Shown here piece after piece: positions 5,358 to 45,320 of a DNA stretch of 64,000 bases (the stretch's first letter is position 1; every line of letters starts with the position of its first letter). The DNA is taken from IMG/VR virus record IMGVR_UViG_3300045988_115146; one strand, 5' to 3'. The stretch is from a virus. The notes beneath the pieces were generated by a model. The model had not been told where the DNA came from, ran no database searches, and was given only the letters and a program-made list of their open reading frames with translations. Both the position numbers and the translations under genes were made by a program.

Positions 5358-5360
5358 TAT

Positions 5361-8325: not shown

Positions 8326-8349
8326 TAAACAAATAAATGATATAATACT

Positions 8350-8817: not shown

Positions 8818-8829
8818 TAGTGAATCACT

Positions 8830-8862
8830 AAGGGAGAGCTCAGCAATGAACTCTCCCTTTTT
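8830..8862 (+). terminator. rho-independent terminator after the tube gene
   Basis: aagggagag (8830-8838) pairs with ctctccctt (8851-8859), followed by a T-run. Confidence 0.65.
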
Positions 8863-8908
8863 CGTTACAAAATACTATATTTTTCAGAATACTTAACAAC
8901 TCAACACA

Positions 8909-30165: not shown

Positions 30166-30567
30166 ATGGCTAAGAAAAAGAAAGACAAACTTAAAGATGC
30201 CAGGGAAGAATTAGAATCAGGTGATATCCTTGAACCAATGGATATTTCTAAGTTGGGAACAAACGGAGATGTATGCTTTGGTAAGCATTATGATCTTTCA
30301 ACCAAGGAATGCAAGATGTGCGGGGATTCCGAATTATGTTGTATCAAGTTCACAGATCTAATGGGTAAGACCAGAAAGGAATTAGAAGCTGATACCCAAT
30401 ACAAGGATTTGGAACCTTTGATTGATATGGCAGGTTGCAAGAAGTATTACCGTAAATTGGTAAGGGATAAACTTGGTAAGAGAGAAATACTTGATAAGCT
30501 TCAGAGTAGGTTTGAATTATCACGTAAAGAAGCAAGAGACTTATACCGTAAATTTAACAGTAAATAA
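30166..30567 (+). CDS. hypothetical K/E-rich protein with a Cys cluster
   Basis: 133 aa; CFGKHYDLSTKECKMCGDSELCC. Confidence 0.45.
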   Translation: MAKKKKDKLKDAREELESGDILEPMDISKLGTNGDVCFGKHYDLSTKECKMCGDSELCCIKFTDLMGKTRKELEADTQYKDLEPLIDMAGCKKYYRKLVRDKLGKREILDKLQSRFELSRKEARDLYRKFNSK

Positions 30568-30568
30568 C

Positions 30569-31144
30569 ATGATTCAATTAGAGTTCACAAAGATTCGGGA
30601 GGTTAAATCCCCCAACCGAGCAAACGAAGGGGATGCAGGTTTAGATTTCTATATCCCTAAGTTATCAGAAAAGGATATACTAAGGGTGGGGGAAAAAGAT
30701 TTACGTGATATGGTTGGTATCAACCGTAAGATGTATAGTAAAGGTTATATCAAGTTCAATGGTATGGGAACTGATGATCTTTATGTAATCGTTAAACCTC
30801 ATGGAAGGTTGCTTATTCCATCAGGTATAAAGGTACTGATCAATCCCAAAGAGTCTATGCTAATGGCAGCAAACAAATCTGGGGTTGCTACTAAAGATGG
30901 GTTGACATTCACTGCAGAGATTGTGGATAGTCCATATACTGGTGAAATGCACATAGGTATACAAAATAATTCACCTGAAGAAGTATGGATACCTCTTCAA
31001 CAGGATAAGAAGATAATGCAGTTCATACATGTTCCAATCCTACTTTCAAATCCCATAGAGATACCTAATGAGGAGTATGAAGAGAAAGCAAAGGACTGGG
31101 GAACAAGAGGAGACAAAGGATTTGGTGCACACGATAACAAATAA
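30569..31144 (+). CDS. dut: trimeric dUTP diphosphatase
   Basis: The ANEGDAGLDFYIP motif and beta-rich sequence fit dUTPase, and the C-terminus ends GDKGFG. ATG at 30569 directly follows the upstream stop, so the track start at 30473 is an overlapping upstream extension. Confidence 0.75.
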   Translation: MIQLEFTKIREVKSPNRANEGDAGLDFYIPKLSEKDILRVGEKDLRDMVGINRKMYSKGYIKFNGMGTDDLYVIVKPHGRLLIPSGIKVLINPKESMLMAANKSGVATKDGLTFTAEIVDSPYTGEMHIGIQNNSPEEVWIPLQQDKKIMQFIHVPILLSNPIEIPNEEYEEKAKDWGTRGDKGFGAHDNK

Positions 31145-31148
31145 GAAG

Positions 31149-32060
31149 ATGGACTCGAGGGACATAATTCAGGAACCTGGTATCATACCCGGTGATAAGT
31201 ATTTGGAAGAGATATACTCTATGCAAAAAGAACTGTTATCTGGTTATATAGGCATAGAGGGATTACCACAATACCCAATAGACATAAATACTAAGGCATC
31301 ACAATCCTTGTTGAAGGATTTCACTGCTAGAGTGGTAGAGGAATTATCAGAGGGATATGAATCATTCCAAGCTATCAGTGAAAGTATGAGTAAAAATCAT
31401 TGGAAGTTAGCTAATGGTAATTGTGAAGACTCAATCTACATTGAATTGTTAAACAATCTTCAAAATGCCAATGAAGAGAATGCAGATGCAATACACTTCT
31501 TTGTAGAGTTGCTAATATATGCAAATGTAGGTCCAGATGACATTATGTCATATATGGAGAAGTATGCTAAGGATAATCACTTCAATAAGATTGAAATTGA
31601 TAGTTTCAATGAAATGAGAGGTGATGTATTATATACTGCTCAGAATATGGGAGTGAAATGGTTGATGGATGAGGGTAATATTGATGTTACACTTAATCAT
31701 CAAAAGATAGATCTCTTAAAGTGGTATGAGAATAAAGATAGTGGATCTTTACCTGAATACAACATAAACTTATTAGTTGGTGGTAGGATGTATAACTATG
31801 AGGACTATGAAATTCAATATCCATACATACTGTGGAAGATAACCCATCACCTTAACATTGCTCGTAACTTTTTGAAGAATAAGCCTTGGAAGCAATCTCA
31901 GGTAATGACTCAAGAGTTAAAGTACCAGGCTGAATTAGTGAAGGCATTCATATATTTCTGTGGATACCTTGGATGGATAGGTATGGATTCAAAGGAAGTA
32001 TTCTACATCTACTTCAAAAAGAATCACATTAATATGTTCCGTCAAAAGTCGAAGTATTAA
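31149..32060 (+). CDS. all-alpha NTP pyrophosphohydrolase (dimeric dUTPase / MazG / dCTPase-like)
   Basis: FTARVVEELSEGYES (ExxE) and NANEENADAIHFFVELL (EExxD) are typical of dimeric dUTPase/MazG-type enzymes. The likely start is ATG 31149 (MDSRD). Confidence 0.5.
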   Translation: MDSRDIIQEPGIIPGDKYLEEIYSMQKELLSGYIGIEGLPQYPIDINTKASQSLLKDFTARVVEELSEGYESFQAISESMSKNHWKLANGNCEDSIYIELLNNLQNANEENADAIHFFVELLIYANVGPDDIMSYMEKYAKDNHFNKIEIDSFNEMRGDVLYTAQNMGVKWLMDEGNIDVTLNHQKIDLLKWYENKDSGSLPEYNINLLVGGRMYNYEDYEIQYPYILWKITHHLNIARNFLKNKPWKQSQVMTQELKYQAELVKAFIYFCGYLGWIGMDSKEVFYIYFKKNHINMFRQKSKY

Positions 32061-32061
32061 T

Positions 32062-33051
32062 ATGAACATAGTAAAGAGCAATAGGCCAGTAGATGCTTGG
32101 GAGCAAATACTTGAAAATTTTTTGGTTAAGAAACCAGAATGGTTTAGTGAAGGGATAGGGTATAACTTAACCGATTCATTATTCACTTATGATCTGGTAG
32201 TAGAGATATCAGAAGCTAAGTTTGATCCAGAATTTGATTTTGGTAAGTTATTTGGATATACAGCTACTAAGTGGACTGGATTAATAACTAATTACCTTGA
32301 TCTTGATATTCTTGATCAGGCAAAGTTAATGATAAGGAAGTTAGAGGAGAATAAGGCAGTAAATAGGAATTATCACATCGGTTTCCATTTTGCTGACAAT
32401 CATGGCAGTGGAAAAGGATGCTTGGTTGGAGGTATATTCTCCCGTAAGATTGGGGTTGATAATCCTGAGGTAACAGTAATCATACGTTCATCCGAAGTAG
32501 TTACAAGGTTGCCAATAGACATGTTGCTGTTCTGTCGTATGGGACAGTACATTTATGGTCATGATAATTTTTCATTGAAGTTAGTTATCAAGGCTGCTTG
32601 GGCAAATGATACTACCATACTTCTATATCAGAATATAAAGGACTTAAAAGAGTTCTTGAAAGAAAACTGTAATGATGAGGCTCGTAGGAAAAAGATACGT
32701 AAGTCACTGAAAAAATTAATGACAAGTGATGAGGCTAGTTATAAAACCTATGGCAACAGTTTTAGAGCTTTCAAAGTACTTAGGAAAGATTTAGGATATA
32801 AGCAAAAATCAATGTTGGCCTCTGACTTAGAAATTGGAGATTGGGATGGAATTCCATTACCAGAGGTATGTCCATCAATTCTAAAGCGTAACATGATAAA
32901 GAAGACATATCTTAAGTTCACAGAGAAGTATGGCCTTAAACTAAAGTTGGAAGAGAATACAGAGAAGAAAAAGAAAAAGTTGATATCATTCTCTTCACCT
33001 GATGAAGATGATATGGATGATAACGAACCAATAGCTGAGGCTAATGAGTAA
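32062..33051 (+). CDS. divergent thymidylate-synthase-fold protein, paralog A
   Basis: NRNYHIGFHF...GKGCLVGGIFSRK...VTVIIRSSEVVTRLPIDMLLFCRMGQY parallels the ThyA segments sRR.i.s / PC.. / RS.D. It is clearly paralogous to the next ORF (DPEFDFGKLFGYTATKWTGLITNYLD versus DPEFDFGRHFNYTSAKWKSLIANYID). Confidence 0.4.
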   Translation: MNIVKSNRPVDAWEQILENFLVKKPEWFSEGIGYNLTDSLFTYDLVVEISEAKFDPEFDFGKLFGYTATKWTGLITNYLDLDILDQAKLMIRKLEENKAVNRNYHIGFHFADNHGSGKGCLVGGIFSRKIGVDNPEVTVIIRSSEVVTRLPIDMLLFCRMGQYIYGHDNFSLKLVIKAAWANDTTILLYQNIKDLKEFLKENCNDEARRKKIRKSLKKLMTSDEASYKTYGNSFRAFKVLRKDLGYKQKSMLASDLEIGDWDGIPLPEVCPSILKRNMIKKTYLKFTEKYGLKLKLEENTEKKKKKLISFSSPDEDDMDDNEPIAEANE

Positions 33052-33829
33052 GTTAAAAGTAAAGAATAACCTGTTAGTGTTCCGAAATAGCATGAAAGCT
33101 TGGGAGGGGCTTAACAGGTTATTCTTATTCAATATTCCCGGTTTGGATATTGAAAGAATTGGTAAAGCTCAATATATAAATGATTTGGTTATTTATATTA
33201 AAGAACCTCTAGTAGACCCGGAATTTGATTTTGGAAGGCACTTTAATTATACATCTGCTAAATGGAAATCTTTGATAGCTAATTATATAGATGAGAATTC
33301 AATGATTGATCTGAGACAAGAAGTGGTGAGATCATTGAATTCAAGAAAGATTTTCAACATAGGGTATCAGTTTGATAATAAGCATGCACATGGAAAGAAT
33401 TGTTTATTATCATTGACAGTATCAAAGAAAGCTGGTATGGATTATCCCATGATAACGGTATTCATGAGGGCTTCTGAAGTAACTAAAAGACTAATATGTG
33501 ATCTTTTATTAATACAAAGAATTGGTGAATACATATTCACTGGGGATAAATTCTGTATATCAATACACTTTAGTCAGATATTCAATGATGATACGGTATT
33601 ATTGATGTACCATGCTCATGAGGATCTATTAAAGCTTAGTGATAGAATTGGTATATATGATAGTAATTGGTATGATAGGCTGAAGTATCTACTAAAAGTA
33701 GATCCCGATAAGATAAAGTATAAGGTACATAAAAGAGCATTGAAAGTACTTAGGCCAGAATTGTTTAAGTATCCTAAAACTCTGGCCAAGGATTGTACAC
33801 TGGGTAATGAAGACTGGCTACCTTTCTAA
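33044..33829 (+). CDS. divergent thymidylate-synthase-fold protein, paralog B
   Basis: SRKIFNIGYQF...GKNCLLSLTVSKK...ITVFMRASEVTKRLICDLLLIQRIGEY. It is a tandem paralog of 32062-33051. Confidence 0.4.
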   Translation: MSKLKVKNNLLVFRNSMKAWEGLNRLFLFNIPGLDIERIGKAQYINDLVIYIKEPLVDPEFDFGRHFNYTSAKWKSLIANYIDENSMIDLRQEVVRSLNSRKIFNIGYQFDNKHAHGKNCLLSLTVSKKAGMDYPMITVFMRASEVTKRLICDLLLIQRIGEYIFTGDKFCISIHFSQIFNDDTVLLMYHAHEDLLKLSDRIGIYDSNWYDRLKYLLKVDPDKIKYKVHKRALKVLRPELFKYPKTLAKDCTLGNEDWLPF

Positions 33830-33873
33830 GAAAGGGAAGTCTATTGAATTGCAAACATAAAAAAATTATAACC

Positions 33874-34644
33874 ATGAGAATATATTCAAATCCCTACGAA
33901 TTGATGTCTGAGACTGCCCGTAATATATGGGAGATGGGTACAGAGGTAAAACCAAAAACTTACCAAAACAAAGTAATAGAAGGCAAAGATGAGTTCATAA
34001 CTAAAGAGCTTATTTGTGAACAATATTGCTTAACTCACATGGATGATCCATCTCCATTATTTGTATTTACCAAATCTAAAGATTGGGCAGATGCCGAATT
34101 TAAAGAGAGAATTAGTGGAGTAATGGAAAATCCAGGTAAAGCTTGGGAATTACGTAAAGATATCTGGGAAGAGTTCTTAGTAAATGGGTTCTTTGATTAT
34201 ACCTATGCTGAACGTATGAATGAGACAGTTTCATATAAAGGCAAGGCATTTTCTAAAATAGGAGCAATTATAGAGTTGTTAAAAACAGACAACGATACTA
34301 GAAAAGCCATACTAAATATATATGGTGAGGATGGTTTTAATGAGGATTGTGATTCAAACTATCTTGGTGGTGAACATAGAATACCATGTTCAATGTATTA
34401 TGATTTCCTTATCCGGGAGAATGCCAGAGGAGAAAAGCAATTAAATATTTGCTATCACCAAAGATCATCCGATTTTGTAACTCATTTCGGAAATGATGTA
34501 TATTTGGCATGGAGACTGATGGAATATGTAGCTAGTGAAGTAGGAATTAAACCTGGATATTTATATCAAACTATTGATAGTTTGCATAGCTATAAAAAAG
34601 ATTGGGTAAAGTTAAAGACATCAATCCAAACTGAATTGAGATAA
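33874..34644 (+). CDS. ThyA-family enzyme (thymidylate synthase or dNMP hydroxymethylase/methylase)
   Basis: TRKAILNIYG...RIPCSMYYDFLIR...LNICYHQRSSDFVTHFGNDVYLAWRLMEYVA aligns without gaps to the ThyA segments PCH..QF and [20 protein letters not shown]. The track start at 33844 is TTG; ATG 33874 is likelier. Confidence 0.7.
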   Translation: MRIYSNPYELMSETARNIWEMGTEVKPKTYQNKVIEGKDEFITKELICEQYCLTHMDDPSPLFVFTKSKDWADAEFKERISGVMENPGKAWELRKDIWEEFLVNGFFDYTYAERMNETVSYKGKAFSKIGAIIELLKTDNDTRKAILNIYGEDGFNEDCDSNYLGGEHRIPCSMYYDFLIRENARGEKQLNICYHQRSSDFVTHFGNDVYLAWRLMEYVASEVGIKPGYLYQTIDSLHSYKKDWVKLKTSIQTELR

Positions 34645-34648
34645 CCTC

Positions 34649-34723
34649 ATGGGTAATGGTATGTTTTGAATGGTGTCCTATCTGAGAATTGAGATTAAAG
34701 CTAAATAAATTACCATTACCCAT
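34649..34723. repeat. 13-bp inverted repeat with a 49-nt spacer, upstream of the tRNA cluster
   Basis: atgggtaatggta (34649-34661) pairs with taccattacccat (34711-34723). Confidence 0.8.
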
Positions 34724-34727
34724 CTTT

Positions 34728-34804
34728 GGGCCCATAGCTCAGTTGGTAAGAGCAGCGGACTCATAATCCGAAGGTCGGGGGTTCAAGCCCCTCTGGGCCC
34801 ACCA
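34728..34804 (+). tRNA. tRNA-Met (anticodon CAT; could be an Ile2-type if lysidinylated), CCA encoded
   Basis: The cloverleaf was folded by hand: acceptor gggccca/tgggccc, T-arm ggggg-ttcaagc-ccctc, anticodon loop ctCATaa (CAT at 34762-34764). Confidence 0.85.
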
Positions 34805-34903
34805 AAGATTTTCTCTTATTTTCTTATTTTGTGCGTGGACAATACAAACAGTCCTGGTAAATTCGAAGGTACTAGACAGTAGTGATACAGGCTAGTACCA
34901 ATT

Positions 34904-34978
34904 ACGGGAGTAGCACAGTCAGGTTAGTGTACTTGCTTTGGGAGCAAGTGGTCGCAGGTTCGAATCCTGTCTCCCGTA
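34904..34978 (+). tRNA. tRNA-Pro (anticodon TGG)
   Basis: Acceptor acgggag/ctcccgt, anticodon stem cttgc/gcaag with loop ttTGGga, T-loop ttcgaat. Confidence 0.8.
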
Positions 34979-34991
34979 CATATTAGTAAAG

Positions 34992-35074
34992 GCTCGGATG
35001 GAGAAATAGGTAAACTCATCAGATTTAAGCTCTGACGGTCATTGACCTTGCGGGTTCGACTCCCGCTCCGAGTA
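34992..35074 (+). tRNA. tRNA-Leu (anticodon TAA), class II with a long variable arm
   Basis: Acceptor gctcgga/tccgagt, anticodon stem tcaga/tctga with loop ttTAAgc, variable arm cggtcattgaccttg, T-arm gcggg-ttcgact-cccgc. Confidence 0.8.
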
Positions 35075-35098
35075 CATAGTATCAAATACTCTTGTCTT

Positions 35099-35797
35099 AT
35101 GAATGATGTTATAATTACCATGGCTGGAAAGGGTACAAGAACAAATAAAGAAGTACCCAAACAATTCTTAAAAGTATCACAAGATAAATACCTATTTGAA
35201 ATCTCATTAGATAAATTTATACGTACTGGATGCTATCGTAAGATAGTTCTTGTTGTGAATCCAGAGTATGTAGAGTGGGTAAAAAATAGAATATCTAATA
35301 ACTATCCAGGTAAATTAGGCAGATTAATCACAGTAATACCAGGTGGTGATACTGCACAACACTCGAGAATCTTAGGATTTGAAAGCTTATTAACAGATGA
35401 GGAATCACTTTGGCCAAATACAGTTACTTTCCATGATGGTGTAAGAGTTGGTTTCGATGAAAATCTACTAACATTCATGATTAATAATTGTAGGTTTAAT
35501 AGCACTGCATATGTACCGTATATTCCAGCAACTGGTACATTAAGATTAGATTCTGATAAGGTAGTATATACTAAGGATAAGTACATGAGGCTTCAGACTC
35601 CCATGGTATTTCCATTTTACCAATTCTATGGATGTTATAATAAGGCAAAAGATAAGGGTATAGAATACCAAACAGCTTCTGATTTGTATGAAGACAACAG
35701 TGGTTTAGTGAACTATGTAATGGGTAATAGATTGAACTTCAAGGTAACTTTCGCAGAAGATATTGATGTAGTAAGATTATTATACAATCATGAATAA
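35099..35797 (+). CDS. IspD/TarI-family cytidylyltransferase (CDP-alcohol synthase)
   Basis: The N-terminus is [23 protein letters not shown] (compare AAG.G.R......PKQ.L), followed by HDGVRV and LQTPMVF. The true ATG is 35099, because the track start at 35042 lies inside tRNA-Leu. Confidence 0.75.
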
Positions 35798-36662
35798 TAT
35801 GAGTTATATTAGTAATCATATCCATAATGGTCATCTAATAAGCAACCTTAGGAGAGAAGTATGGGATATAGAACTAGATATGTTAGATCTAGTAGTTAAT
35901 ATATGTGACAAGATAGGAGTAAAATATTATCTTGATGCAGGTACACTATTAGGTGCAGTTAGACACCAAGGATTCATACCTTGGGATGATGATATCGATT
36001 TGGTAATGTTCAGAGATGAATATGATAAGTTTATATCATACTGTAGGGAAAATTTAGAATATCCATATTTCTTACAAGTACCAGAAACTGATACTTCTAT
36101 TTATCAACATGCAAAGATAAGGAGGAGTGATACAACAGCTATATTAGAAAGGGATCTAGAAGCTAATTGGGATTTTAATCAAGGCATATTCATAGATATA
36201 TTCCCATTAGATAGAGTTCCAGAAGATAAGGGGAAAAGGGAAAGATTTCTATATGAATTGCAATTAATTAAACTAGAACTCTTCTTTTTAAAGAATAGGA
36301 GCTGGAAATTTGCTAATATTCCCCTTGAAAGGGAAAGAATGAATTACCTTAAAAACCTTTATGAAAAGAATAGGAAAAGGTATAATAACACTCAAGAGAA
36401 TTGTTGGGCAACATTAGCTTTTCCTGAACATAACAATATCATAAAGAATATTGATTTTTACAAGAACCAATATCCGGATGTATTCTTAACATTTGAAGGT
36501 AGAAATTTGAGAGTACCGAATATTTACCATGGAGTATTGGAAGACATATATGGAGAGGATTACTTAACTCCCAAGAAATATTCTGGATTACATGGTAGGA
36601 TATTGGTGAATACTCATAAAACATATAAAAACAATATGGAAGACTTTCAAATATTGAAGTAG
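35790..36662 (+). CDS. LicD-family phosphotransferase (phosphocholine / ribitol-phosphate transferase family)
   Basis: [36 protein letters not shown] is the LicD signature, including the DxD. Confidence 0.75.
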
Positions 36663-36667
36663 GTTAT

Positions 36668-36697
36668 AGACAGTATACCGTAAAAAGTATACTGTCT
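36668..36697 (+). terminator. 11-bp hairpin after the LicD-like gene
   Basis: agacagtatac (36668-36678) pairs with gtatactgtct (36687-36697). The downstream T-tract (tattg) is weak. Confidence 0.45.
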
Positions 36698-36782
36698 TAT
36701 TGTCGAATAAGCTAAAGAATCTCAACAGAGTTATGGTTTATTAAATAACTATTGAATACTGCAATATTTAATAATATTATAG

Positions 36783-38351
36783 ATGGAGTCAAGATATGCC
36801 ATAATAAAGAGTTTTTCACAGGTTAAGAAACTTGTGAAAGCTTGTTTGAAGACAGGTATAGCTTCAATAGACTATGAGACTAATGCTGAAGGCATATACA
36901 ATAAAACATTTAGACCAACAATTCTATCAGTAACTTTCCAGGTTGGTTCTGGAGTATCTATTCCATTATGTCATCATGAATATGATAACCCTCATTGGAA
37001 AAAATGGCTTCTATACTTTGGTAGAAAAGTAGTTGAGAATCCAAAAGTAACTAAAGTAGGTTGGAATCTGAAGTTTGACCTTCAGATATTCGAGTTGTAT
37101 GGTATATATGTAAGAGGTACAGTACTTGATGGTATGTTAATGAAGTATCTCTTAAATGAAGAGAAACCAAATGACCTTAAATCAATGGTTCGTAGGTATT
37201 TACCAGAACACGGAGATTACGAAAAAGCTGATAAGTTTGATAAGATACCATGGAATAAAAAGCCACTGGAACCACTCTGCAAATATGGATGTCAAGATAC
37301 CGATTATACCCTACGATTATCTATGTTCTTTGAGAACAAATTGATAGAAATAGGTATGTATCCATTATTAAGGCATCTGATAATGCCAGCATCAAGAGTA
37401 TTACAGCATGCAGAGAAAACTGGTTTATACCTTGATAGGAAATTCAATCAGGAATTACTTGAATCTTACAAGCCAAAGATTGATCAAGCAACTTTAAATT
37501 GCTTGAATCTTCCCAGAGTTAAAAGATTCTCTAGATGGCTTATCCAAGAAAGAATAAGCAAATACATTTCTTCAATTGAAATGGAACTTGAAGACTTGGA
37601 TTATAGTGATCCAAAAAATGCAAGGAAGATAGCTAGCAGGGAACAAAAAATATCTAACATAAGAGCTGGTGTATATACAACCAAGAAAGAATTAGAATTA
37701 ACCCGTGATATAAATCTTGGTAGTAAAGTAGACTTACCAATGTTGTTATATTCTGAAAAGGGGTTCAAATTCCCTATTATAAAATATACGAAGGATAAGA
37801 CTACAAATCGTGATACTGATAAGCCGAGTACTGATGAGGATACATTGGTAGAACTTCGGTTGTCAATTAAGAATCCCGAAAGTCCCAAAGCAATATTCTT
37901 GGATAATCTACTCAAGTTGAGAGGATTGAAGAAGATGTACACTACATATATAAAAGGGTGGCACGATAAAGTACAGGATGATAATAAATTACATGGAAGA
38001 TTTTTGATACATGGAACAACTAGCGGGAGATTGAGTTGCATAGGCGGAGATACAAAAGTATTAACTCAATATGGAGAAATACCAATTATAGATATTAAGG
38101 ATTGGATTGGTGAAGGATTATGTGCCATGACTAAAGATGGGTGGCAATTAATAGAAAACTTCATATATAAGGGTGTTGATGATATGTATGAAGTAACACT
38201 TGAAGATGGTACTTCTATTCAATGTACTTTAGATCATAAATTTATAACTAATAAAGGTACTAAAAGATTAAGGGAAATTTACAATAAATACCGAAATACT
38301 ATTGATTCTAAAATTAAACTTTTAAGATATGTCCCAGACTACGAACAATAG
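36783..38351 (+). CDS. family A DNA polymerase, N-terminal fragment (3'-5' exonuclease + start of the pol domain) fused to a split-intein N-half
   Basis: The exonuclease motifs are SIDYETNAE, GWNLKFDLQIF and YGCQDTDYTLRL. The pol motif TTSGRLS is followed by CIGGDTKVLT...TLDHKF (intein blocks A and B), then a stop after 104 intein residues. Confidence 0.8.
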   Translation: MESRYAIIKSFSQVKKLVKACLKTGIASIDYETNAEGIYNKTFRPTILSVTFQVGSGVSIPLCHHEYDNPHWKKWLLYFGRKVVENPKVTKVGWNLKFDLQIFELYGIYVRGTVLDGMLMKYLLNEEKPNDLKSMVRRYLPEHGDYEKADKFDKIPWNKKPLEPLCKYGCQDTDYTLRLSMFFENKLIEIGMYPLLRHLIMPASRVLQHAEKTGLYLDRKFNQELLESYKPKIDQATLNCLNLPRVKRFSRWLIQERISKYISSIEMELEDLDYSDPKNARKIASREQKISNIRAGVYTTKKELELTRDINLGSKVDLPMLLYSEKGFKFPIIKYTKDKTTNRDTDKPSTDEDTLVELRLSIKNPESPKAIFLDNLLKLRGLKKMYTTYIKGWHDKVQDDNKLHGRFLIHGTTSGRLSCIGGDTKVLTQYGEIPIIDIKDWIGEGLCAMTKDGWQLIENFIYKGVDDMYEVTLEDGTSIQCTLDHKFITNKGTKRLREIYNKYRNTIDSKIKLLRYVPDYEQ

Positions 38352-39383
38352 GCAAAAGGTATTCAAAGATAAATCTATCAACGGTCCAAGGAGAAAATTA
38401 AAGTTAATAGTAGAGGATGGTAAAAGATATATAAAGAAAGAAGATCTTTTACATTACTTCTTTCAAGAGAATTGGAATATAGAAGACTTTAATTATCATT
38501 TTGGCATTGGTCATAGGATAGTGAGAGGTTCTCTATATAAATGGTTTACTAGGGAAGAAATAGAGGAATCTCATAGAAAGAAGATTGCTAATAAACAGAT
38601 TGGTAGTAATAATTCTAATAGGATTAATTGGTATAAACCCCGTAAGCTTATACCTTTATTGGATTTAGAAGAAGCCGTTAAAAAATCTACTTGTAAACAG
38701 GATTTGAAGGAGAGACTACAATTAACTTCTTGGGAATTGTCACACATACAACAGTTCTATAACTTTAAACTACCAAATAGATCTCCTTTACTTAATACTA
38801 AACTACAGTATTCTCTTTCTAGATGTGATATAAAACTTTTATGTAAAGTTATTACTGGAATGGGATGGGAAGATGTATTTTTCTATAATACTCCTAAGGC
38901 TATCTATAAAATGGATTGTCTTATTTGGGAACTTAGGAAGATAAATCGTTCTTTGAGGAGAGCTTTTAGGAAACAGATAGTAGATAATGGTATTAAGTTT
39001 CCTACAAATTTGATAGAGTATAAATTTCACAAAGCTCTAGAAAAAATGGATATAGAGCATGAAATACAATATTATATACCAGAACATAATATACATCTAG
39101 ACTTTTTAATAAAAGGTCATTACAACTTGGAATTAGATGGAAATTTGCATGAAGAAGAAGCAGATAGTGGTAGAGACCGTATTCTCAAATCTCTTGGCTA
39201 TAAAATTATAAGACTAGATTTAAAATCTCTAAATCTTACTAGATTCTCAAAAGAAAAGGAGGTAAGGAAATGTATAAAGAAATTGGTATTACCAAAGTTA
39301 AACCAATAGGTAAGAAAGGTGTATATGATTTATCCGTTATGAACTGTCATCAGTTTGTGGCTAATAATATCCTAAATCATAAT
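38037..39383 (+). mobile_element. split intein (IntN 38037-38348, IntC 39270-39383) enclosing a free-standing endonuclease gene
   Basis: IntN starts at Cys (tgc 38037-38039). IntC is MYKEIGITKVKPIGKKGVYDLSVMNCHQFVANNILNHN, followed by Ser+1 (tct 39384-39386). The joined exteins read TSGRLS/SQEPNLQQIP, which is the PolA T.TGRLSS..PNLQNIP motif. Confidence 0.75.
38329..39309 (+). CDS. free-standing homing-endonuclease candidate with a Vsr/DUF559-like PD-(D/E)xK C-terminal domain
   Basis: The C-terminus is HKALEKMDIEHEIQYYIPEHNIHLDFLIKGHYNLELDGNLHEEEADSGRDRILKSLGYKIIRL (DUF559/Vsr pattern). It uses a different frame from both polymerase halves and overlaps each by 23-40 nt. Confidence 0.6.
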   Translation: MSQTTNNRQKVFKDKSINGPRRKLKLIVEDGKRYIKKEDLLHYFFQENWNIEDFNYHFGIGHRIVRGSLYKWFTREEIEESHRKKIANKQIGSNNSNRINWYKPRKLIPLLDLEEAVKKSTCKQDLKERLQLTSWELSHIQQFYNFKLPNRSPLLNTKLQYSLSRCDIKLLCKVITGMGWEDVFFYNTPKAIYKMDCLIWELRKINRSLRRAFRKQIVDNGIKFPTNLIEYKFHKALEKMDIEHEIQYYIPEHNIHLDFLIKGHYNLELDGNLHEEEADSGRDRILKSLGYKIIRLDLKSLNLTRFSKEKEVRKCIKKLVLPKLNQ

Positions 39384-40424
39384 TCTCAAGAACCAAACTT
39401 ACAGCAAATCCCAAAGACTTCAGTAGACCCAAATATAAAGAAGCAATTAGTAGCCCCAGATGGTAAGTTGTACATGGCTCTTGACTACTCTCAAGCAGAG
39501 TTAAGAATCATGGCTCATCTGTCTGGGGATGAAACATATCTTGAGGCTTTTGCAAAAGGTCAGGATCCTCACCTTGCTATTGCAGCAAAGAAGTATGGGG
39601 TATCATATGAGGAAGCATATAAAGCTTACAGTGATGAACAACACCCAGATCATAATCTTTGGAAGAACCGAAGAAAGCAGGCAAAACAGATTTGCTTCGG
39701 TATTATCTATGGTATTCAGAAGAAACTGCTTGCAGTTAAATTGTCAGATCCAAAAGCTGGTATTATTGTAACACCAGATGAAGCTCAGCAGCAGTTAAAT
39801 GAATTCTTCTATGAACATCCTAAGATTAAAAAGTTCATGATTCATCAAGAAAAGGTATTGATTAAGCATGGGTATATAAAATCTTTGTTCGGAAGAAAGA
39901 GAAGGTTACCTCAGGTATATTCCGATAATGAACAAGAAGCAGCATACGCAGTACGATTATCTGTTAATATGCCATGTCAATCAGCAGCATCTGATATGAA
40001 CTTATTTGCTTCAGTATTAAACTATTGGAAAATGAGACAAGGTAAGTTGCCATTTATGCAAGAGACTTGTAATGTTCACGATGCTACCTACTATTTGGTG
40101 AGGCCAGAATATATAAATACATGGGTAGTACATGAAATATGGGAAACTTGTCGTAACCCTAATACAAAAGAATATTTTAACTTTCAGATAGACGACGTCA
40201 ATATGAGCATGGATTTTGTTATAGGACGTTCAATGGCAGAGGAATTACCATTTATACCCGGTTATGATTATAGGAAAATGCTTAAACCAGATTTTAATCC
40301 AGATGAGTACTTAGAAGAACATCGTAAGTACAGAGGTATTGAAATAGAAGATTACCCTAAGTTGTATCCAGAAGAGATAGCTAGGAATAAAATGGAATTT
40401 GAGAAAAGGATATATGAAAGGTAA
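39270..40424 (+). CDS. split-intein C-half fused to the family A DNA polymerase C-terminal fragment (palm/fingers)
   Basis: Motif A is LDYSQAELRIMAHLSGDE, motif B is RRKQAKQICFGIIYG, and motif C is NVHDATYYLV. Confidence 0.8.
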   Translation: MYKEIGITKVKPIGKKGVYDLSVMNCHQFVANNILNHNSQEPNLQQIPKTSVDPNIKKQLVAPDGKLYMALDYSQAELRIMAHLSGDETYLEAFAKGQDPHLAIAAKKYGVSYEEAYKAYSDEQHPDHNLWKNRRKQAKQICFGIIYGIQKKLLAVKLSDPKAGIIVTPDEAQQQLNEFFYEHPKIKKFMIHQEKVLIKHGYIKSLFGRKRRLPQVYSDNEQEAAYAVRLSVNMPCQSAASDMNLFASVLNYWKMRQGKLPFMQETCNVHDATYYLVRPEYINTWVVHEIWETCRNPNTKEYFNFQIDDVNMSMDFVIGRSMAEELPFIPGYDYRKMLKPDFNPDEYLEEHRKYRGIEIEDYPKLYPEEIARNKMEFEKRIYER

Positions 40425-40908
40425 TATACCATACTTTGATTGTTATCATGTTACAAGAAGTGGTGATGTATACTCCAAGTATAAAGACAAAGTTACTTGG
40501 AGGAAAATGGCTAAGAGAAAGAAGAATAATGGTTACATTATAGTAAGCTTAAGAAATAACGATGGGGTTAAGTATACATTTAACATACATAGGTTAGTAG
40601 CTGAAACTTATATACCTAACCCAGATAATAAGCCATGTGTAGGTCATAAAGACAATAATAGGGAAAACAATACAGTAGAAAACTTATACTGGTGTACTCA
40701 TAAAGAAAATACTAAACAATGTATAGATGATGGTAGATTTAATATACCAAGCCAAAAGTTAAATGATGAGTCTATAAATAGTATGATAGAAGATTATGAA
40801 AGTGGTATGAGTAACATACAGATAAAGGCCAAATACAAAATAAGTATTATGACCATGTATAAATACTTCAACGAAAGAGGTGTTATATGGAAAAAAGTCA
40901 AAAGGTAG
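40399..40908 (+). CDS. HNH homing endonuclease (NUMOD4 + HNH_3 + C-terminal HTH)
   Basis: YHVTRSGDVYS (NUMOD4), GHKDNNRENNTVENLYWCTHKEN (HNH), and MSNIQIKAKYKISIMTMYKY (HTH-like). It overlaps the polymerase 3' end. Confidence 0.75.
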   Translation: MRKGYMKGNIPYFDCYHVTRSGDVYSKYKDKVTWRKMAKRKKNNGYIIVSLRNNDGVKYTFNIHRLVAETYIPNPDNKPCVGHKDNNRENNTVENLYWCTHKENTKQCIDDGRFNIPSQKLNDESINSMIEDYESGMSNIQIKAKYKISIMTMYKYFNERGVIWKKVKR

Positions 40909-41335: not shown

Positions 41336-41710
41336 ATGTCAAAAGTAGAATTAAACCTTCTTTCAGTAGAAGAAGCAAAATGGTTAAACGAAAAACTGAA
41401 AGGTGTAGGAACACCAACAGGTGGGAGGGTATTAATTGTATCCCCGAAGGTAACATCAGAGACTAAAACTCAGAGTGGTCTTTATATCCCACAAGATCAT
41501 GATAAGGATACTGTACCACGTAAAGGGGTAGTAATTCAAGTGGGGTATATTACCAAAGAACAGGAAGTAGATTATCCAGGTCTTCAGGTTGGTGCAGTAG
41601 TAACTTATGGTCTATATGCAGGTAAAGAATTAGATGTAATAGACCTTCCTGATCAGGTAACAACTATATTATCACTGAACGAGATACTTTATATTGAAAC
41701 CAATAAATAA
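41336..41710 (+). CDS. GroES/Cpn10-like co-chaperonin (T4 gp31 analogue) with an N-terminal extension
   Basis: GGRVLIVSPKVTSETKTQSGLYIPQD...PRKGVVIQVGY...VGAVVTYGLYAGKELDV fits the Cpn10 pattern. Confidence 0.6.
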   Translation: MSKVELNLLSVEEAKWLNEKLKGVGTPTGGRVLIVSPKVTSETKTQSGLYIPQDHDKDTVPRKGVVIQVGYITKEQEVDYPGLQVGAVVTYGLYAGKELDVIDLPDQVTTILSLNEILYIETNK

Positions 41711-43774: not shown

Positions 43775-44674
43775 ATGCTTATGGTAGTGGACGGTAGTAA
43801 CCTTGCTCACCGTTCATACCATAAGTTTAAGAATCTTAAAGCTAATAATGGAGCTGGAACAGGATTAGTATATGGGTTCTTAAGAATATTTGGTTCATAC
43901 CTTGTAAGGTTTAAGCCAAGTCATGTGGTAATTACATTTGATACACATAAGAGTAAATCATCAAACTTCCGTAATGACTTATTGGAGGGTTATAAAGCTC
44001 ACAGAAGTAAGGTAAGTATGGATTATGAAGACTTCAATAAACAATTGGCTTTGTTGAGAAGGATATTGAGATTACTTGGAGTTCAAATGATCATAGACAA
44101 TAAAGGATTGGGACATGAATCAGATGATTACATTGCTTGGTTGGTAATAAACCATAAAGGAAAATCACTGATAATATCTTCTGACAAAGACTTCTGTCAA
44201 TTGTTAGATAAGAAGGTAAAGATATTCAACCCAAGTAAAGAAACTCTAGTACATAACCAGACATGTAGAGAGATAATGGGATATTCAGCAGAAGAATGTG
44301 TTGACTACTTAATACTCAACGGAGATAAGTCAGATGACATACCTGGTTATTATGGTATGGGAGAAGTAAAGACTAGATCATTCCTTGATAAATTTGGTAG
44401 TATAGCAGATTTTATTAATGATAGTGAAGCAGAATTCAAAGGTATAGAAAGAGATCAATTAGAAGAGTTATATAAGAAGAATAAGTCTCTGATAGACTTG
44501 AGATCTGCTTTGAATCTGTATCCAATAAAGATAATCCCTTGGGTAAAAGGATGTACTAATAATATAAGGAAAGACAGGTTATTCATGGTATTAGATAAGT
44601 TTAACCTAAGATCTTTCAAGATACCAGATTTTTTAGAACCTTTCAAAAAACTACAGACTTATGTATCACGGTAA
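43775..44674 (+). CDS. 5'-3' exonuclease / flap endonuclease (T4 RNase H / Pol I N-terminal domain family)
   Basis: The motifs are MVVDGSNLAHRSYH, ESDDYIA, SSDKDFCQL and GDKSDDIPG. The start was chosen after the RecA stop. Confidence 0.8.
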   Translation: MLMVVDGSNLAHRSYHKFKNLKANNGAGTGLVYGFLRIFGSYLVRFKPSHVVITFDTHKSKSSNFRNDLLEGYKAHRSKVSMDYEDFNKQLALLRRILRLLGVQMIIDNKGLGHESDDYIAWLVINHKGKSLIISSDKDFCQLLDKKVKIFNPSKETLVHNQTCREIMGYSAEECVDYLILNGDKSDDIPGYYGMGEVKTRSFLDKFGSIADFINDSEAEFKGIERDQLEELYKKNKSLIDLRSALNLYPIKIIPWVKGCTNNIRKDRLFMVLDKFNLRSFKIPDFLEPFKKLQTYVSR

Positions 44675-45320
44675 GTATCAAATTATGTTCACCGGTGTTT
44701 CTGGAGTAGGGAAAACTACTATAGCTAAAGAAATAGCCGAATTATTGAATATACCATTCATATCTGGGTCATATTCAGATTTAGTACCAGAAACAAAAGA
44801 TATGCCACATGCTGATATGATACAGCAAGATGCAAAAACAGTATTTATGCAAGATATGCAAGTATTGAATCTACGTAACAAAGCTTTCCGAATGGAAGAT
44901 AACTTTGTAACAGATAGATCATACTTTGATTCTGCAGCATATTTCATTAATAAGTTATCCCATAGAATTGAAGAATGTGATCTAGATCATGCCATCAACT
45001 TATGTAGAATGTTACTTGGTCAACAGTGTACACATTTGATATTCATACCATTTTCGGATAAATTCTTTAATGAGTGGGTAACTGAGAATAATGGTAAAAG
45101 GGTATTGTCAAAGTACTACCAATATCAAGTATCTCAAATAATGTATGGTTTATTAAAAGTATGGGGATATAAACCAGATTCAAAAATATATCAACTATGT
45201 AATGGAGTTCCCAATACAGGGGTGATGGATATAATGGGTTATAAGGTAAAAGTTCTCATACTTGATGAGATGAATCACGAAAAGAGAGAATACTTAATCA
45301 GGAAGTTTCTTCAGTTATGA
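44661..45320 (+). CDS. P-loop nucleotide/nucleoside-monophosphate kinase-like protein
   Basis: The P-loop is FTGVSGVGKTTIAKE, and the protein is small (219 aa). Substrate is unknown. Confidence 0.45.
   Translation: MYHGKYQIMFTGVSGVGKTTIAKEIAELLNIPFISGSYSDLVPETKDMPHADMIQQDAKTVFMQDMQVLNLRNKAFRMEDNFVTDRSYFDSAAYFINKLSHRIEECDLDHAINLCRMLLGQQCTHLIFIPFSDKFFNEWVTENNGKRVLSKYYQYQVSQIMYGLLKVWGYKPDSKIYQLCNGVPNTGVMDIMGYKVKVLILDEMNHEKREYLIRKFLQL

What the first reader, a model, noticed from the sequence alone, without database searches (positions are those of the whole stretch)
35099..36662. IspD-type cytidylyltransferase plus LicD-type phosphotransferase pair inside a phage replication module
Both signatures are strong. 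The two genes overlap by 8 nt (35790-35797), suggesting translational coupling. They sit between a tRNA cluster and the DNA polymerase, and a hairpin follows at 36668-36697. No reductase (TarJ-like) or kinase that would supply the alcohol phosphate is visible nearby, so the donor precursor would have to come from the host. This gene pair is normally found in teichoic acid, capsule or LPS decoration loci, not in a virulent-looking phage DNA-metabolism block.
Basis: partly seen in the sequence, partly recalled or inferred. Interest (0 to 1): 0.7.

Follow-up and report, generated by a model that had tools for sequence, protein, structure and literature searches.

The report
Phage two-gene phospho-alcohol transfer cassette
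A gut Bacteroides-type phage carries an optional two-gene cassette, one enzyme that probably activates a small alcohol-phosphate with CTP and one that probably transfers it onto a sugar; the pair was already noted in this phage family in 2021, its target is still unknown, and it turns out to be an old, phage-specific module shared by several unrelated phage groups.

Summary
An IspD-family cytidylyltransferase gene (35099-35797) and a LicD-family phosphotransferase gene (35790 or 35799-36662) lie between a tRNA-Met/Pro/Leu cluster and a fractured polA.

It is not a recent host fragment:
- The LicD is at most 49% identical to anything outside its own lineage, and at most 36% to any of 185,579 species genomes.
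- The IspD-like protein is at most 36% identical to anything among 1.84 billion representatives.
- Both genes are under purifying selection, and their GC matches each carrier phage.

It is not new as a sighting. Benler et al. 2021 described an ispD+licD insertion in the replication module of some "Flandersviridae", and the window fits that family.

What I add:
- The pair is an accessory cassette, present in 12 of 77 related loci, at an insertion hot spot.
- The same adjacent IspD-then-LicD module occurs in at least four phage groups, as phage-only clades.
- The cellular counterparts carry a reductase gene that the phages always lack.
- The IspD-like enzyme fails the curated IspD and ribitol-5-phosphate models.
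- The genomic context varies: replication module, tRNA arrays, or tail-fibre neighbourhood.

Best reading: a CDP-alcohol is made and its phospho-alcohol is transferred to a glycan, probably on the host envelope. DNA hypermodification is not supported, but it is not excluded.

The parts
35099..35797 (+). IspD-family (GT-A-like) cytidylyltransferase, 232 aa. Inferred role: makes a CDP-activated alcohol (CDP-X) from CTP and a host-supplied alcohol phosphate.
   Evidence: Pfam IspD 89.8 bits. Catalytic residues are kept: G10, G12, R14, P20-K21-Q22, G82-G83, S89, H112-D113, R116, Q166-T167-P168, N213, K215, T217, D221. It fails the curated models: TIGR00453 IspD 105.2 against a cutoff of 181.3, and NF001183 ribitol-5-P cytidylyltransferase 61.6 against 166. 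dN/dS is 0.13-0.26.
35790..36662 (+). LicD/FKTN/FKRP-family phosphotransferase, 290 aa (287 aa if it starts at 35799). Inferred role: transfers X-phosphate from CDP-X to a hydroxyl of an acceptor and releases CMP.
   Evidence: Pfam LicD 135.3 bits, full length. The 'WDDDID' motif aligns with the FKRP metal-binding motif. The AlphaFold model has pLDDT 88.7. FKRP is the only whole-domain match among solved structures, E about 1e-6. dN/dS is 0.07-0.18.
34728..35075 (+). tRNA-Met(cat), tRNA-Pro(tgg) and tRNA-Leu(taa) cluster. It forms the upstream edge of the cargo slot, and the pair is probably transcribed with it.
   Evidence: ARAGORN and Rfam. The same three tRNAs are present in relatives without the pair. 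tRNA-Leu ends 23 nt before the IspD ATG.
36668..36697 (+). Conserved hairpin, terminator-like or regulatory, upstream of polA. It forms the downstream edge of the cargo slot and belongs to the phage backbone, not to the cassette.
   Evidence: 11-bp stem, -14.5 kcal/mol, z = -3.76. It is conserved with compensatory changes in L002, L131, L114 and L129. It did not meet the simple terminator scan's criteria.

Best explanation
The two genes form one short pathway carried as an optional cassette.

Step 1 (inferred from family and intact catalytic residues). The IspD-like enzyme condenses CTP with a small alcohol phosphate taken from host metabolism and makes a CDP-alcohol. The alcohol cannot be read from the sequence. 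Candidates are ribitol-5-P or another pentitol/pentose phosphate, or methylerythritol-4-P.

Step 2 (inferred from family, motif and fold). The LicD-like enzyme transfers the alcohol-phosphate from that CDP-alcohol to a hydroxyl group of a sugar and releases CMP. FKRP/fukutin and bacterial LicD-family enzymes work this way.

Acceptor and purpose (inference). The most likely acceptor is a lipid-linked precursor of a host envelope polysaccharide, such as capsule or LPS/LOS in a Bacteroides-type host. Infected or carrier cells, and their debris, would then display an altered receptor. That would limit superinfection by competitors or wasteful re-adsorption of progeny.

Cassette behaviour (shown). 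The cassette is dispensable. It sits in a cargo slot between a tRNA cluster and a conserved hairpin upstream of polA. It belongs to an old, phage-only lineage of such pairs that moves between unrelated phages.
For: Shown:
- Domain membership and intact catalytic motifs.
- The LicD model matches only FKRP, a CDP-ribitol-dependent ribitol-phosphate transferase, over the whole domain.
- IspD-then-LicD adjacency is kept in groups A, B, C1, C2 and D, although identity between groups is only 25-36% for IspD and 41-49% for LicD.
- Phage LicDs separate from the nearest cellular LicDs in 300 of 300 bootstraps. Monophyly of the phage IspD-likes has 77% support.
- Purifying selection and GC matched to each carrier.
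- Cellular relatives of this LicD lie in polysaccharide loci next to their donor-making cytidylyltransferase: LicC plus choline kinase, or CTP_transf_like plus PEP mutase.
- 16 of 80 cellular loci hold an adjacent IspD-family gene.
- A giant-virus protein named IspD (456 aa) aligns over 282 columns with the LicD model. This suggests a fusion of the two functions.
- Accessory status: 12 of 77 related loci carry the pair, and the same slot holds other cargo elsewhere.
- The module lies directly after tail-fibre genes (Peptidase_S74) in T4-like phages and after structural genes in group B. Receptor-modifying genes of phages commonly sit there (general knowledge).
- Bacteroidales genomes have LicD-containing polysaccharide loci, so suitable acceptors exist in the presumed hosts.
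- Published proposal of LicD-family ribitol-phosphate transfer using TarI-made CDP-ribitol in E. faecalis EPA (PMC7188991).
Against: - No experiment exists. Donor, acceptor and benefit are all inferred.
- The IspD-like protein fails both curated substrate-specific models. It has lost residues that are invariant in true IspD and gained its own invariant Arg90, so the donor may be something unanticipated.
- No reductase is present, unlike the cellular pairs I inspected (6 separate genes and 1 fusion among 7 loci).
- All 16 phage-clade LicDs are acidic (pI 4.8-6.7), whereas 11 of 20 nearest cellular LicDs are basic. This could mean a non-membrane, possibly protein or soluble, acceptor.
- A surface change is of unclear value to a strictly lytic phage. 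The lifestyle of this family is unknown (PMC8008677).
- The host assignment to Bacteroides/Parabacteroides rests on the published family-level CRISPR matches. Family membership of the window is inferred from architecture and genome size only.
Confidence: 0.45

Rival explanations
1. DNA hypermodification. The phage replaces cytosine with a 5-hydroxymethyl (or similar) derivative, and the LicD-like enzyme adds an alcohol-phosphate to that hydroxyl on DNA, using the CDP-alcohol made by the IspD-like enzyme. It would be an optional anti-restriction decoration, analogous to T-even glucosylation.
For: - In the window the pair lies in a T4-style nucleotide-metabolism and replication block: dUTPase-like, MazG-like, TS-like, dNMP-kinase-like, PolA, gp32, UvsX.
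- The TS-like enzyme has Asp where thymidylate synthase has the base-reading Asn. From general knowledge, this marks dCMP-specific hydroxymethylases.
- Optional presence among close relatives resembles the variable glucosyltransferases of T-even phages.
- A LicD-only relative sits between ligase/endonuclease V and the 5'-3' exonuclease.
Against: - The context is not conserved. Group B has the pair among structural genes, group C in tRNA arrays, and group D and L267 after tail-fibre genes.
- No TS-like gene lies within 10 kb of the pair in groups B and C.
- 65 of 77 relatives keep the TS-like gene without the pair.
- All phage-clade LicDs are acidic.
- No LicD-family enzyme is known to act on nucleic acid. 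Fold matches to nucleic-acid nucleotidyltransferases are only generic (E > 0.01, TM about 0.2).
Confidence: 0.1
2. Virion decoration. The pair adds a phospho-alcohol to a phage structural protein or its glycan, such as a tail fibre, adhesin or capsid decoration. This would alter host range, mucus or epithelium adhesion, or immune recognition.
For: - The module sits directly after tail-fibre genes in T4-like phages (L265, L267).
- In group B it sits directly after tandem structural paralogues (w1108-like, w2381-like). One of these shows recent exchange, 75-80% identity.
- The acidic pI of the phage LicDs suggests a soluble, non-membrane acceptor.
- Giant viruses carry LicD domains fused to glycosyltransferases. 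From general knowledge, giant viruses glycosylate their capsid fibrils, and some mycobacteriophages glycosylate virions.
Against: - No phage glycosyltransferase was found in the window or next to the pair to build a glycan acceptor.
- In the window's own lineage the pair is far from the structural genes.
- Direct transfer to protein hydroxyls is not known for this family.
Confidence: 0.12
3. Two unrelated auxiliary genes, as proposed in 2021. IspD boosts the host MEP/isoprenoid pathway, and LicD independently adds phosphocholine to teichoic acids.
For: - Published suggestion (PMC8008677).
- The IspD-like protein scores higher on IspD models than on the ribitol model. It clusters on the IspD side of a midpoint-rooted tree.
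Against: - The two genes are adjacent or overlapping in every IspD-carrying group.
- The IspD-like proteins score 105-129 bits against a cutoff of 181.3 that true IspDs pass.
- They have lost IspD-invariant residues: Arg to Ala/Cys at position 86, TDD to QTA, Gln169 to Met/Glu, and the conserved Arg (window position 159) has become variable.
- No LicA/LicC genes for CDP-choline are present.
- The presumed Bacteroides hosts are Gram-negative and lack teichoic acids (general knowledge).
- One step of a seven-step pathway is an unlikely flux control point.
Confidence: 0.05
4. RNA acceptor. The LicD-like nucleotidyltransferase-fold enzyme modifies tRNA (phage or host), which would explain why the pair sits in tRNA arrays.
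For: The pair lies 15-443 nt from tRNA genes in groups A, B, C1 and C2. Weak fold resemblance to CCA-adding enzymes and MenT toxins.
Against: - The flanking tRNAs differ in identity each time.
- The T4-like loci have no tRNA nearby.
- tRNA regions are general cargo hot spots; the same slot holds HNH genes and other ORFs.
- The fold matches are generic nucleotidyltransferase cores (E 0.015-1).
Confidence: 0.04
5. A recently captured, possibly decaying fragment of a host capsule or LPS locus with no role for the phage.
For: Gene pairs of this kind are typical of cellular polysaccharide loci.
Against: - The best cellular LicD match is 36% identical, and the best cellular IspD match about 31-33%.
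- GC is adapted to each carrier, and dN/dS is 0.07-0.26.
- The clades are phage-only.
- The gene order is the reverse of most cellular pairs inspected, and the reductase is missing.
Confidence: 0.01

Closest known systems
ispD + licD insertion in 'Flandersviridae' gut phages (Benler et al. 2021, Microbiome 9:78; PMC8008677)
   Same: Two adjacent nucleotidyltransferase-superfamily genes, ispD-family and licD-family, are inserted in the replication module of some members only. The phages are myoviruses with DnaB and PolA, followed by a block of about 20 kb of unknown ORFs. The window matches this architecture and the 76.9-81 kb size class of the family. This is very probably the same thing.
   Different: The paper treated the genes separately: LicD acting on teichoic acid, IspD on isoprenoids. 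It reported them in one family. Here the pair is shown to be a coupled module present in at least four phage groups, as phage-only clades, without the reductase, and with a non-canonical IspD. Family membership of the window was not tested by TerL or PolA phylogeny.
Bacterial CDP-ribitol/CDP-polyol synthase (TarI/TarJ, Bcs1 type) plus LicD-family phosphotransferase in teichoic acid, EPA and capsule loci
   Same: An IspD-family cytidylyltransferase lies next to a LicD-family transferase. Examples are the E. faecalis EPA model (PMC7188991) and 16 of the 80 nearest cellular LicD loci.
   Different: Cellular sets include a Rossmann-type reductase of about 350 aa, separate or fused, and lie among glycosyltransferases and flippases. 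The phages have neither. Gene order is mostly LicD-then-IspD in the cellular loci inspected and IspD-then-LicD in phages. The phage IspD-likes form a separate clade and score below the ribitol-5-P model cutoff.
Mammalian ISPD (CRPPA) plus fukutin/FKRP pathway
   Same: It has the same two-enzyme logic: an IspD-family enzyme makes CDP-ribitol and a LicD-family enzyme transfers ribitol-5-phosphate to a glycan. FKRP is the only solved structure matching the whole phage LicD model, and the metal-binding Asp motif aligns. No dedicated adjacent reductase is involved.
   Different: Sequence identity is only 13-15%, and TM-score is 0.45-0.49 normalised on the query. FKRP has an extra stem domain and acts in the Golgi on O-mannosyl glycans.
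LicA/LicB/LicC/LicD phosphocholine pathway (S. pneumoniae, H. influenzae)
   Same: The LicD family transfers a phospho-alcohol from a CDP-alcohol to a surface glycan. Close cellular relatives of the phage LicD sit beside LicC-type cytidylyltransferase and choline kinase genes.
   Different: The phage partner is IspD-type, not LicC-type. No choline kinase or transporter is present.
Phage-encoded receptor or O-antigen modification (gtrABC, Oac, S. aureus prophage TarP); analogy from general knowledge
   Same: Accessory phage genes, often next to tail-fibre or tail-spike genes, decorate host surface polysaccharide and change phage susceptibility.
   Different: Those enzymes are glycosyl- or acetyltransferases, mostly in temperate phages. 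None uses a CDP-alcohol/LicD mechanism.

Membership tests
Pfam IspD family (PF01128), GT-A-like cytidylyltransferases | Profile match above the gathering score, plus the catalytic GxGxR, PKQ, HD..R and K..T motifs | tested here: met
   89.8 bits against 27. Motifs are conserved.
True IspD (MEP cytidylyltransferase, TIGR00453 equivalog) | Score at or above the curated cutoff of 181.3 bits | tested here: not met
   Window 105.2 bits. Partner proteins from the other phage groups score 109-129 bits. True IspDs P0131, P0133 and P0138 score 183-197 bits.
True IspD (MEP cytidylyltransferase, TIGR00453 equivalog) | Residues invariant among IspD/IspDF sequences: Arg at window position 86, the T-D-D motif at 191-193, Gln169, and the conserved Arg at window position 159 | tested here: not met
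   Phage clade: Ala/Cys at 86, Q/L-T-A/L at 191-193, Met/Glu/Gln at 169, K/N/R/Q/T/H at 159. A clade-specific invariant Arg90 is gained.
D-ribitol-5-phosphate cytidylyltransferase subfamily (NF001183; TarI-like) | Score at or above the cutoff of 166 bits | tested here: not met
   61.6 bits for the window and 88-102 bits for the other phage partners.
D-ribitol-5-phosphate cytidylyltransferase subfamily (NF001183; TarI-like) | Accompanying ribulose-5-P reductase (TarJ, or an SDR domain as in Bcs1) | tested here: not met
   The cellular pairs inspected have a reductase-like gene of about 350 aa, or a fusion. No homologue is found in the window or in 42 phage loci.
D-ribitol-5-phosphate cytidylyltransferase subfamily (NF001183; TarI-like) | Use of ribitol-5-phosphate as substrate | not testable with these tools
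   This needs an enzyme assay.
LicD/FKTN/FKRP family (PF04991) | Full-length profile match above the cutoff | tested here: met
   135.3 bits against 22.6, model positions 1-227 of 227.
LicD/FKTN/FKRP family (PF04991) | Metal-binding Asp motif (DxD type) and nucleotidyltransferase fold | tested here: met
   W65-D66-D67-D68-I69-D70 aligns with FKRP WDYDVD. D136 and D141 are invariant. The model matches FKRP at E about 1e-6.
LicD phosphocholine transferase (lic operon type) | Partner genes for CDP-choline: LicC-type cytidylyltransferase, choline kinase, transporter | tested here: not met
   None is present in the window. The NCBIfam cholinephosphotransferase model Mf1 scores 76.8 against a cutoff of 225.
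'Flandersviridae' ispD/licD insertion (Benler 2021) | Myovirus with sheath and baseplate, DnaB and PolA, then a block of about 20 kb of unknown ORFs; genome 77-87 kb | tested here: met
   Weak, sub-threshold tail-sheath match (19.1 bits, cutoff 26.9), tape measure, baseplate J and DnaB. PolA. Unknown ORFs at 48.5-60 kb. Lineage contigs are 75.5-78 kb, and family contig sizes match the published list.
'Flandersviridae' ispD/licD insertion (Benler 2021) | The pair is inserted in the replication module and present in only some members | tested here: met
   It lies between the TS-like gene/tRNAs and polA. 12 of 77 loci carry it.
'Flandersviridae' ispD/licD insertion (Benler 2021) | Monophyly with the family in TerL, PolA and DnaG trees | not tested
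Phage DNA hypermodification systems (T-even glucosylation type) | The modifying enzyme consistently co-occurs with the enzyme that makes the hydroxymethyl base | tested here: not met
   A TS-like gene is adjacent only in group A. None lies within 10 kb in groups B and C. 65 of 77 TS-carrying relatives lack the pair. Whole genomes of the other groups could not be read.
Phage DNA hypermodification systems (T-even glucosylation type) | A modified base in virion DNA | not testable with these tools
   This needs nucleoside mass spectrometry.

The most novel reading that the evidence does not exclude
The phage-only IspD-like/LicD-like clades could be a dedicated viral phospho-alcohol tagging system. 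Its donor would not be CDP-ribitol or CDP-ME. The IspD-like enzyme has lost IspD invariants, gained an invariant Arg next to the active-site Ser, and never travels with a reductase. Its acceptor would not be a host envelope glycan but a phage macromolecule. Candidates are hydroxymethyl-cytosine in phage DNA, a virion fibre or adhesin, or tRNA. That would be a new class of covalent modification made by phages.
Probability: 0.15. Interest if true: 0.85.

Novelty: new variant of a known kind. Interest (0 to 1): 0.42.

Why it matters
The phages concerned are reported to be about as widely detected in human guts as crAss-like phages (PMC8008677). The cassette itself is common: the 90%-identity clusters of the two window proteins hold 1,921 and 704 member sequences.

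A phage-borne pathway that rewrites a surface glycan would bear directly on three things. The first is how Bacteroides phages compete and coexist. The second is capsule- and LPS-dependent phage susceptibility. The third is host-immune recognition of gut bacteria.

If the acceptor turned out to be phage DNA or the virion, it would be a new type of phage macromolecule modification. Natural pair-positive and pair-negative sister phages exist (for example MT121964-like against MT836181-like), which gives a ready-made comparison. The finding also corrects the published reading that the ispD gene is an isoprenoid auxiliary gene.

Tried and rejected
- PHROGs gave no useful family for either protein, nor for the structural neighbours.
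- The word-index homology search for the IspD-like protein found only its own lineage. The exhaustive HMMER search was needed.
- A literature search for MT121964 found nothing. Searches combining LicD with phage terms found only Benler 2021 and papers on cellular polysaccharides.
- The sigma-70 promoter and terminator scan was no better than shuffled sequence around the cassette, and it missed the conserved hairpin. Bacteroides-type promoters are not covered by the tool.
- PDB sequence searches for w1108 and w2381, the genes next to the pair in group B, gave nothing, so I could not show that they are receptor-binding proteins.
- I looked for IspD-LicD fusions among the long IspD hits. None was found; they are IspDF or other fusions.
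- I considered co-mobility of the pair with a particular tRNA and rejected it, because the flanking tRNAs differ between groups.
- I considered CDP-ME as donor, on the grounds that the host MEP pathway would supply it without a reductase. The loss of IspD-invariant residues and the failed equivalog score argue against it but do not exclude it.
- My first coordinates for the hairpins in relatives were off and were corrected.
- Whole genomes of groups B, C and D could not be read, since only 10 kb on each side is available. Genome-wide co-occurrence with hydroxymethylase genes therefore remains untested.
Full report
**1. Observation**

The first runs from ATG 35099 to the stop at 35795-35797 and encodes 232 aa. 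It matches Pfam IspD at 89.8 bits against a cutoff of 27. The second runs from ATG 35790 to 36662 and encodes 290 aa. It matches Pfam LicD over the whole model at 135.3 bits against a cutoff of 22.6.

The 8-nt overlap depends on which start is used. An in-frame ATG at 35799 is the start used by gene callers on close relatives (287-aa products), and it leaves a 1-nt gap. Upstream lie tRNA-Met, tRNA-Pro and tRNA-Leu at 34728-35075. Downstream lies an 11-bp hairpin at 36668-36697 (-14.5 kcal/mol, z = -3.8), followed by polA from 36783.

**2. Which phage this is**

The window is about 94% identical to the uncultivated 75.5-kb 'Phage DP SC_6_H4_2017' (MT121964.1, human faeces, Ireland). It encodes:
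- a weak, sub-threshold tail-sheath match, a tape measure and a baseplate J protein;
- DnaB;
- a nucleotide-metabolism and replication block with dUTPase-like, MazG-like, TS-like, PolA, HNH, Cpn10, gp32, RecA/UvsX, 5'-3' exonuclease and P-loop kinase genes;
- SbcCD-like and PDDEXK genes, followed by a long run of unannotatable ORFs.

This is the architecture published for 'Flandersviridae', which were assigned to Bacteroides and Parabacteroides by CRISPR spacers (PMC8008677). The family's representative genomes fall in two size classes, 85-87.7 kb and 76.9-81 kb. The window's lineage (75.5-78 kb) fits the smaller class. Contigs recovered through its TS-like gene (for example 87,739, 79,485, 77,959 and 76,829 bp) match the published sizes closely. 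I did not test membership by phylogeny.

**3. Prior report**

Benler et al. [quoted passage not shown] They say neither had been reported in phages before. They suggest that LicD might modify teichoic acids to block superinfection, and that ispD might add the isoprenoid pathway to the list of phage-manipulated pathways. Further literature searches found no functional follow-up.

**4. Not a recent host fragment**

- For the LicD-like protein, identity falls from 87-99% within its own lineage straight to 49% or less.
- A scan of one genome for each of 185,579 bacterial and archaeal species found nothing above 36% over the full length.
- For the IspD-like protein, the word-index search found only its own lineage.
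- An exhaustive HMMER search of 1.84 billion representatives gave a best non-self hit of 35-36%.
- The GC content of the pair follows each carrier: 0.32 against 0.34 in the window lineage, 0.50 against 0.48 in group B, and 0.30-0.32 against 0.31-0.35 in group C.
- dN/dS is 0.13-0.26 for IspD and 0.07-0.18 for LicD.

**5. An accessory cassette in a cargo slot**

Relatives of the neighbouring TS-like gene occur on 473 viral contigs. Of 77 fetched loci that span the TS-like gene to polA, only 12 carry the pair. The gap comes in discrete states:

| Gap size | Content |
|---|---|
| about 60-125 bp | nothing |
| about 825-880 bp | tRNAs only |
| about 1.9 kb | tRNAs plus three small ORFs |
| about 2.13 kb | tRNAs plus the pair |
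| 2.58 kb | tRNAs plus an HNH gene plus the pair |

The close relative MT836181.1 has the same flanks and tRNAs but no pair. The downstream hairpin is conserved in all states, with compensatory substitutions: AGACAGTATAC/GTATACTGTCT in the window, AGACAGCATA/TATGCTGTCT in L002, and AGACAGTACA/TGTACTGTCT in L114. It is a backbone element.

**6. The same module in other phage groups**

Adjacent IspD-then-LicD pairs occur in several groups.
- Group A is the window lineage.
- Group B has contigs of 45-92 kb and GC 0.48. Its LicD is 47-49% and its IspD about 31-36% identical to the window proteins. It has the same MNNM start and ...HE* junction.
- Group C has contigs of 100-170 kb, with in-frame TGA at conserved Trp positions. 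It splits into two subgroups whose IspDs are only about 50% identical to each other.
- Group D is T4-like, with a Gp23 capsid gene.
- LicD alone occurs in further T4-like or unclassified phage contigs.

The best relatives of the window's IspD-like protein in the whole library are these partner proteins. This is judged from cluster contig sizes that match groups C and B, and they rank ahead of the first named cellular IspD (31%, Thermotogota).

In neighbour-joining bootstraps, phage-borne LicDs separate from the nearest cellular LicDs in 300 of 300 replicates, and groups A, B and C group together in 297 of 300. The phage IspD-likes of A, B and C are monophyletic in 77%.

**7. Context is not conserved**

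- In group B the pair lies between homologues of window genes 2381-3409 and 3617-4129, next to tandem copies of a w1108-like structural gene.
- In group C it is embedded in a tRNA array.
- In group D it follows a 920-aa Peptidase_S74 tail-fibre gene.
- In L267 two tandem LicDs follow a 904-aa Peptidase_S74 gene.
- In L021 a lone LicD lies between ligase/endonuclease V and a 5'-3' exonuclease.

The 'replication module' setting, which is the main reason to think of DNA, is therefore particular to group A.

**8. Donor**

The nearest cellular LicDs (33-36% identity) lie in polysaccharide loci directly beside the enzyme that makes their donor. In some this is a LicC-type transferase plus choline kinase. 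In others it is CTP_transf_like plus PEP mutase or an aminotransferase.

Sixteen of 80 cellular LicD loci have an adjacent IspD-family gene. In the seven I inspected, a Rossmann-type reductase-like protein of about 350 aa lies next to it or is fused to it. No homologue of these reductases exists in the window or in 42 phage loci.

All phage IspD-likes score 105-129 bits on the curated IspD model (cutoff 181.3, which true IspDs pass) and 62-102 bits on the ribitol-5-P model (cutoff 166). They keep every catalytic residue. They have lost positions that are invariant in true IspD/IspDF:
- Arg to Ala/Cys at window position 86;
- T-D-D to Q-T-A at positions 191-193;
- Gln to Met/Glu at position 169;
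- the conserved Arg at position 159 has become variable.

They have also gained an invariant Arg at position 90. I conclude that the enzyme is an active cytidylyltransferase of unassigned substrate. It is unlikely to be a housekeeping-type IspD, and its alcohol phosphate must come from host metabolism.

**9. Transferase**

The LicD-like protein keeps the W-D-D-D-I-D motif that aligns with FKRP's metal-binding motif, as well as further invariant Asp residues. A confident model (pLDDT 88.7, pTM 0.88) matches only FKRP over the whole domain among solved structures (E about 1e-6). FKRP is the CDP-ribitol-dependent ribitol-phosphate transferase. All other hits are generic nucleotidyltransferase cores.

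Among predicted viral structures it matches LicD proteins of giant viruses. Some of these are fused to glycosyltransferases. One is a 456-aa Bodo saltans virus protein named IspD, which aligns over 282 columns and is probably an IspD-LicD fusion. I could not inspect that sequence.

**10. Acceptor**

Nothing computed here identifies the acceptor.

For a host envelope glycan:
- every characterised family member acts on glycans;
- the presumed hosts have LicD-containing polysaccharide loci;
- the module sits beside tail-fibre genes in several phages, where receptor-modifying genes often lie.

Against, or at least odd:
- all 16 phage-clade LicDs are acidic (pI 4.8-6.7), whereas 11 of the 20 nearest cellular ones are basic;
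- no glycosyltransferase accompanies the pair;
- the benefit to a lytic phage is unclear.

The acidic charge also argues against direct DNA binding. The pair's closeness to tRNA genes in four (sub)groups, with different tRNAs each time, is most simply explained by tRNA regions acting as cargo hot spots and recombination anchors. I could not test this.

**11. Verdict**

The feature is real, functional and conserved, and it was already reported as a sighting. The mechanism I commit to is CDP-alcohol synthesis followed by LicD-type phospho-alcohol transfer to a glycan, most likely on the host envelope, carried as a dispensable cassette. My confidence is about 0.45 overall and about 0.75 for the coupling itself. 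DNA hypermodification (about 0.10) and virion decoration (about 0.12) remain open. The 'two unrelated auxiliary genes' reading (about 0.05) and the 'recent host fragment' reading (about 0.01) are disfavoured.

Noticed in passing
window 36783-40424: polA is 'fractured' into three pieces. ORF 36783-38351 holds the 3'-5' exonuclease, the N-part of PolA and an intein N-piece (starting about CIGGDTKV). ORF 38329-39309 is free-standing and has a DUF559/Vsr-like endonuclease domain. ORF 39270-40424 holds an intein C-piece (...VANNILNHN|S) and the C-part of PolA. Relatives L002 and L023 have one uninterrupted polA (772 aa in L023). It looks like a split intein with a homing-endonuclease gene between the halves.
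   Followed up: partly
window 30473-34644 and 44661-45320: The TS-like gene (33844-34644) has Asp where thymidylate synthases have the base-reading Asn ('QRSSDFVTHFGND' aligned to 'YQRSADMGLGVPFN'). Nearby are dUTPase-like (30473), MazG/dUTPase_2-like (31068) and P-loop kinase (44661) genes. Together this suggests a dCMP-modifying pathway, that is, modified cytosine in the DNA. Two paralogous genes of unknown function (32062-33051 and 33044-33829, about 34% identical to each other) sit just upstream.
   Followed up: partly
window 1108-2379 (compare L039, L041, L042, L045, L046 at about 5075-6130): The C-terminal 330 aa or so of this unannotated structural-region protein is 75-80% identical to proteins of group B phages (GC 0.48), whereas neighbouring genes are only 40-59% identical. 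Group B carries 3-4 tandem paralogues. This suggests recent exchange of a module between phage groups, possibly an adhesin or receptor-binding part, and shared hosts.
   Followed up: partly
window 34644-36783; loci L105-L184: The gap between the TS-like gene and polA is an insertion hot spot with at least five states across relatives: empty, tRNAs, tRNAs plus three small ORFs (127/202/81 aa), tRNAs plus the pair, and tRNAs plus HNH plus the pair.
   Followed up: yes
L018-L020, L047-L058 (group C phage contigs, 100-170 kb): In-frame TGA occurs at conserved Trp positions of LicD, which indicates code-4-like stop-codon recoding. These contigs also have very large tRNA arrays, a tmRNA in L050 and a tRNA with anticodon cta in L047.
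   Followed up: no
L105 6798-12798: The contig is 99% identical to the window up to tRNA-Met, then continues into unrelated, poorly coding DNA. It is either a chimeric assembly or a rearrangement at the tRNA.
   Followed up: partly
L001 7907-9263 (group B, downstream of the pair): The accessory region next to the group B pair holds a MazG-like ORF (7078-7485, Pfam-confirmed), a DUF3109 ORF (8661-9263, Pfam-confirmed) and an ORF that looks like GTP cyclohydrolase I by eye (7907-8659, not tested).
   Followed up: partly
window 40399-40908 and 41336-41710: An HNH endonuclease with a resolvase-type HTH lies immediately after polA. A Cpn10 (GroES-like) co-chaperonin gene lies before gp32.
   Followed up: no
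L021/L022 90-1040 and 6304-7254: A phage-like contig with a lone LicD also carries an AsnA (aspartate-ammonia ligase family) gene next to DNA ligase and endonuclease V, which is unusual cargo for a phage replication region.
   Followed up: no
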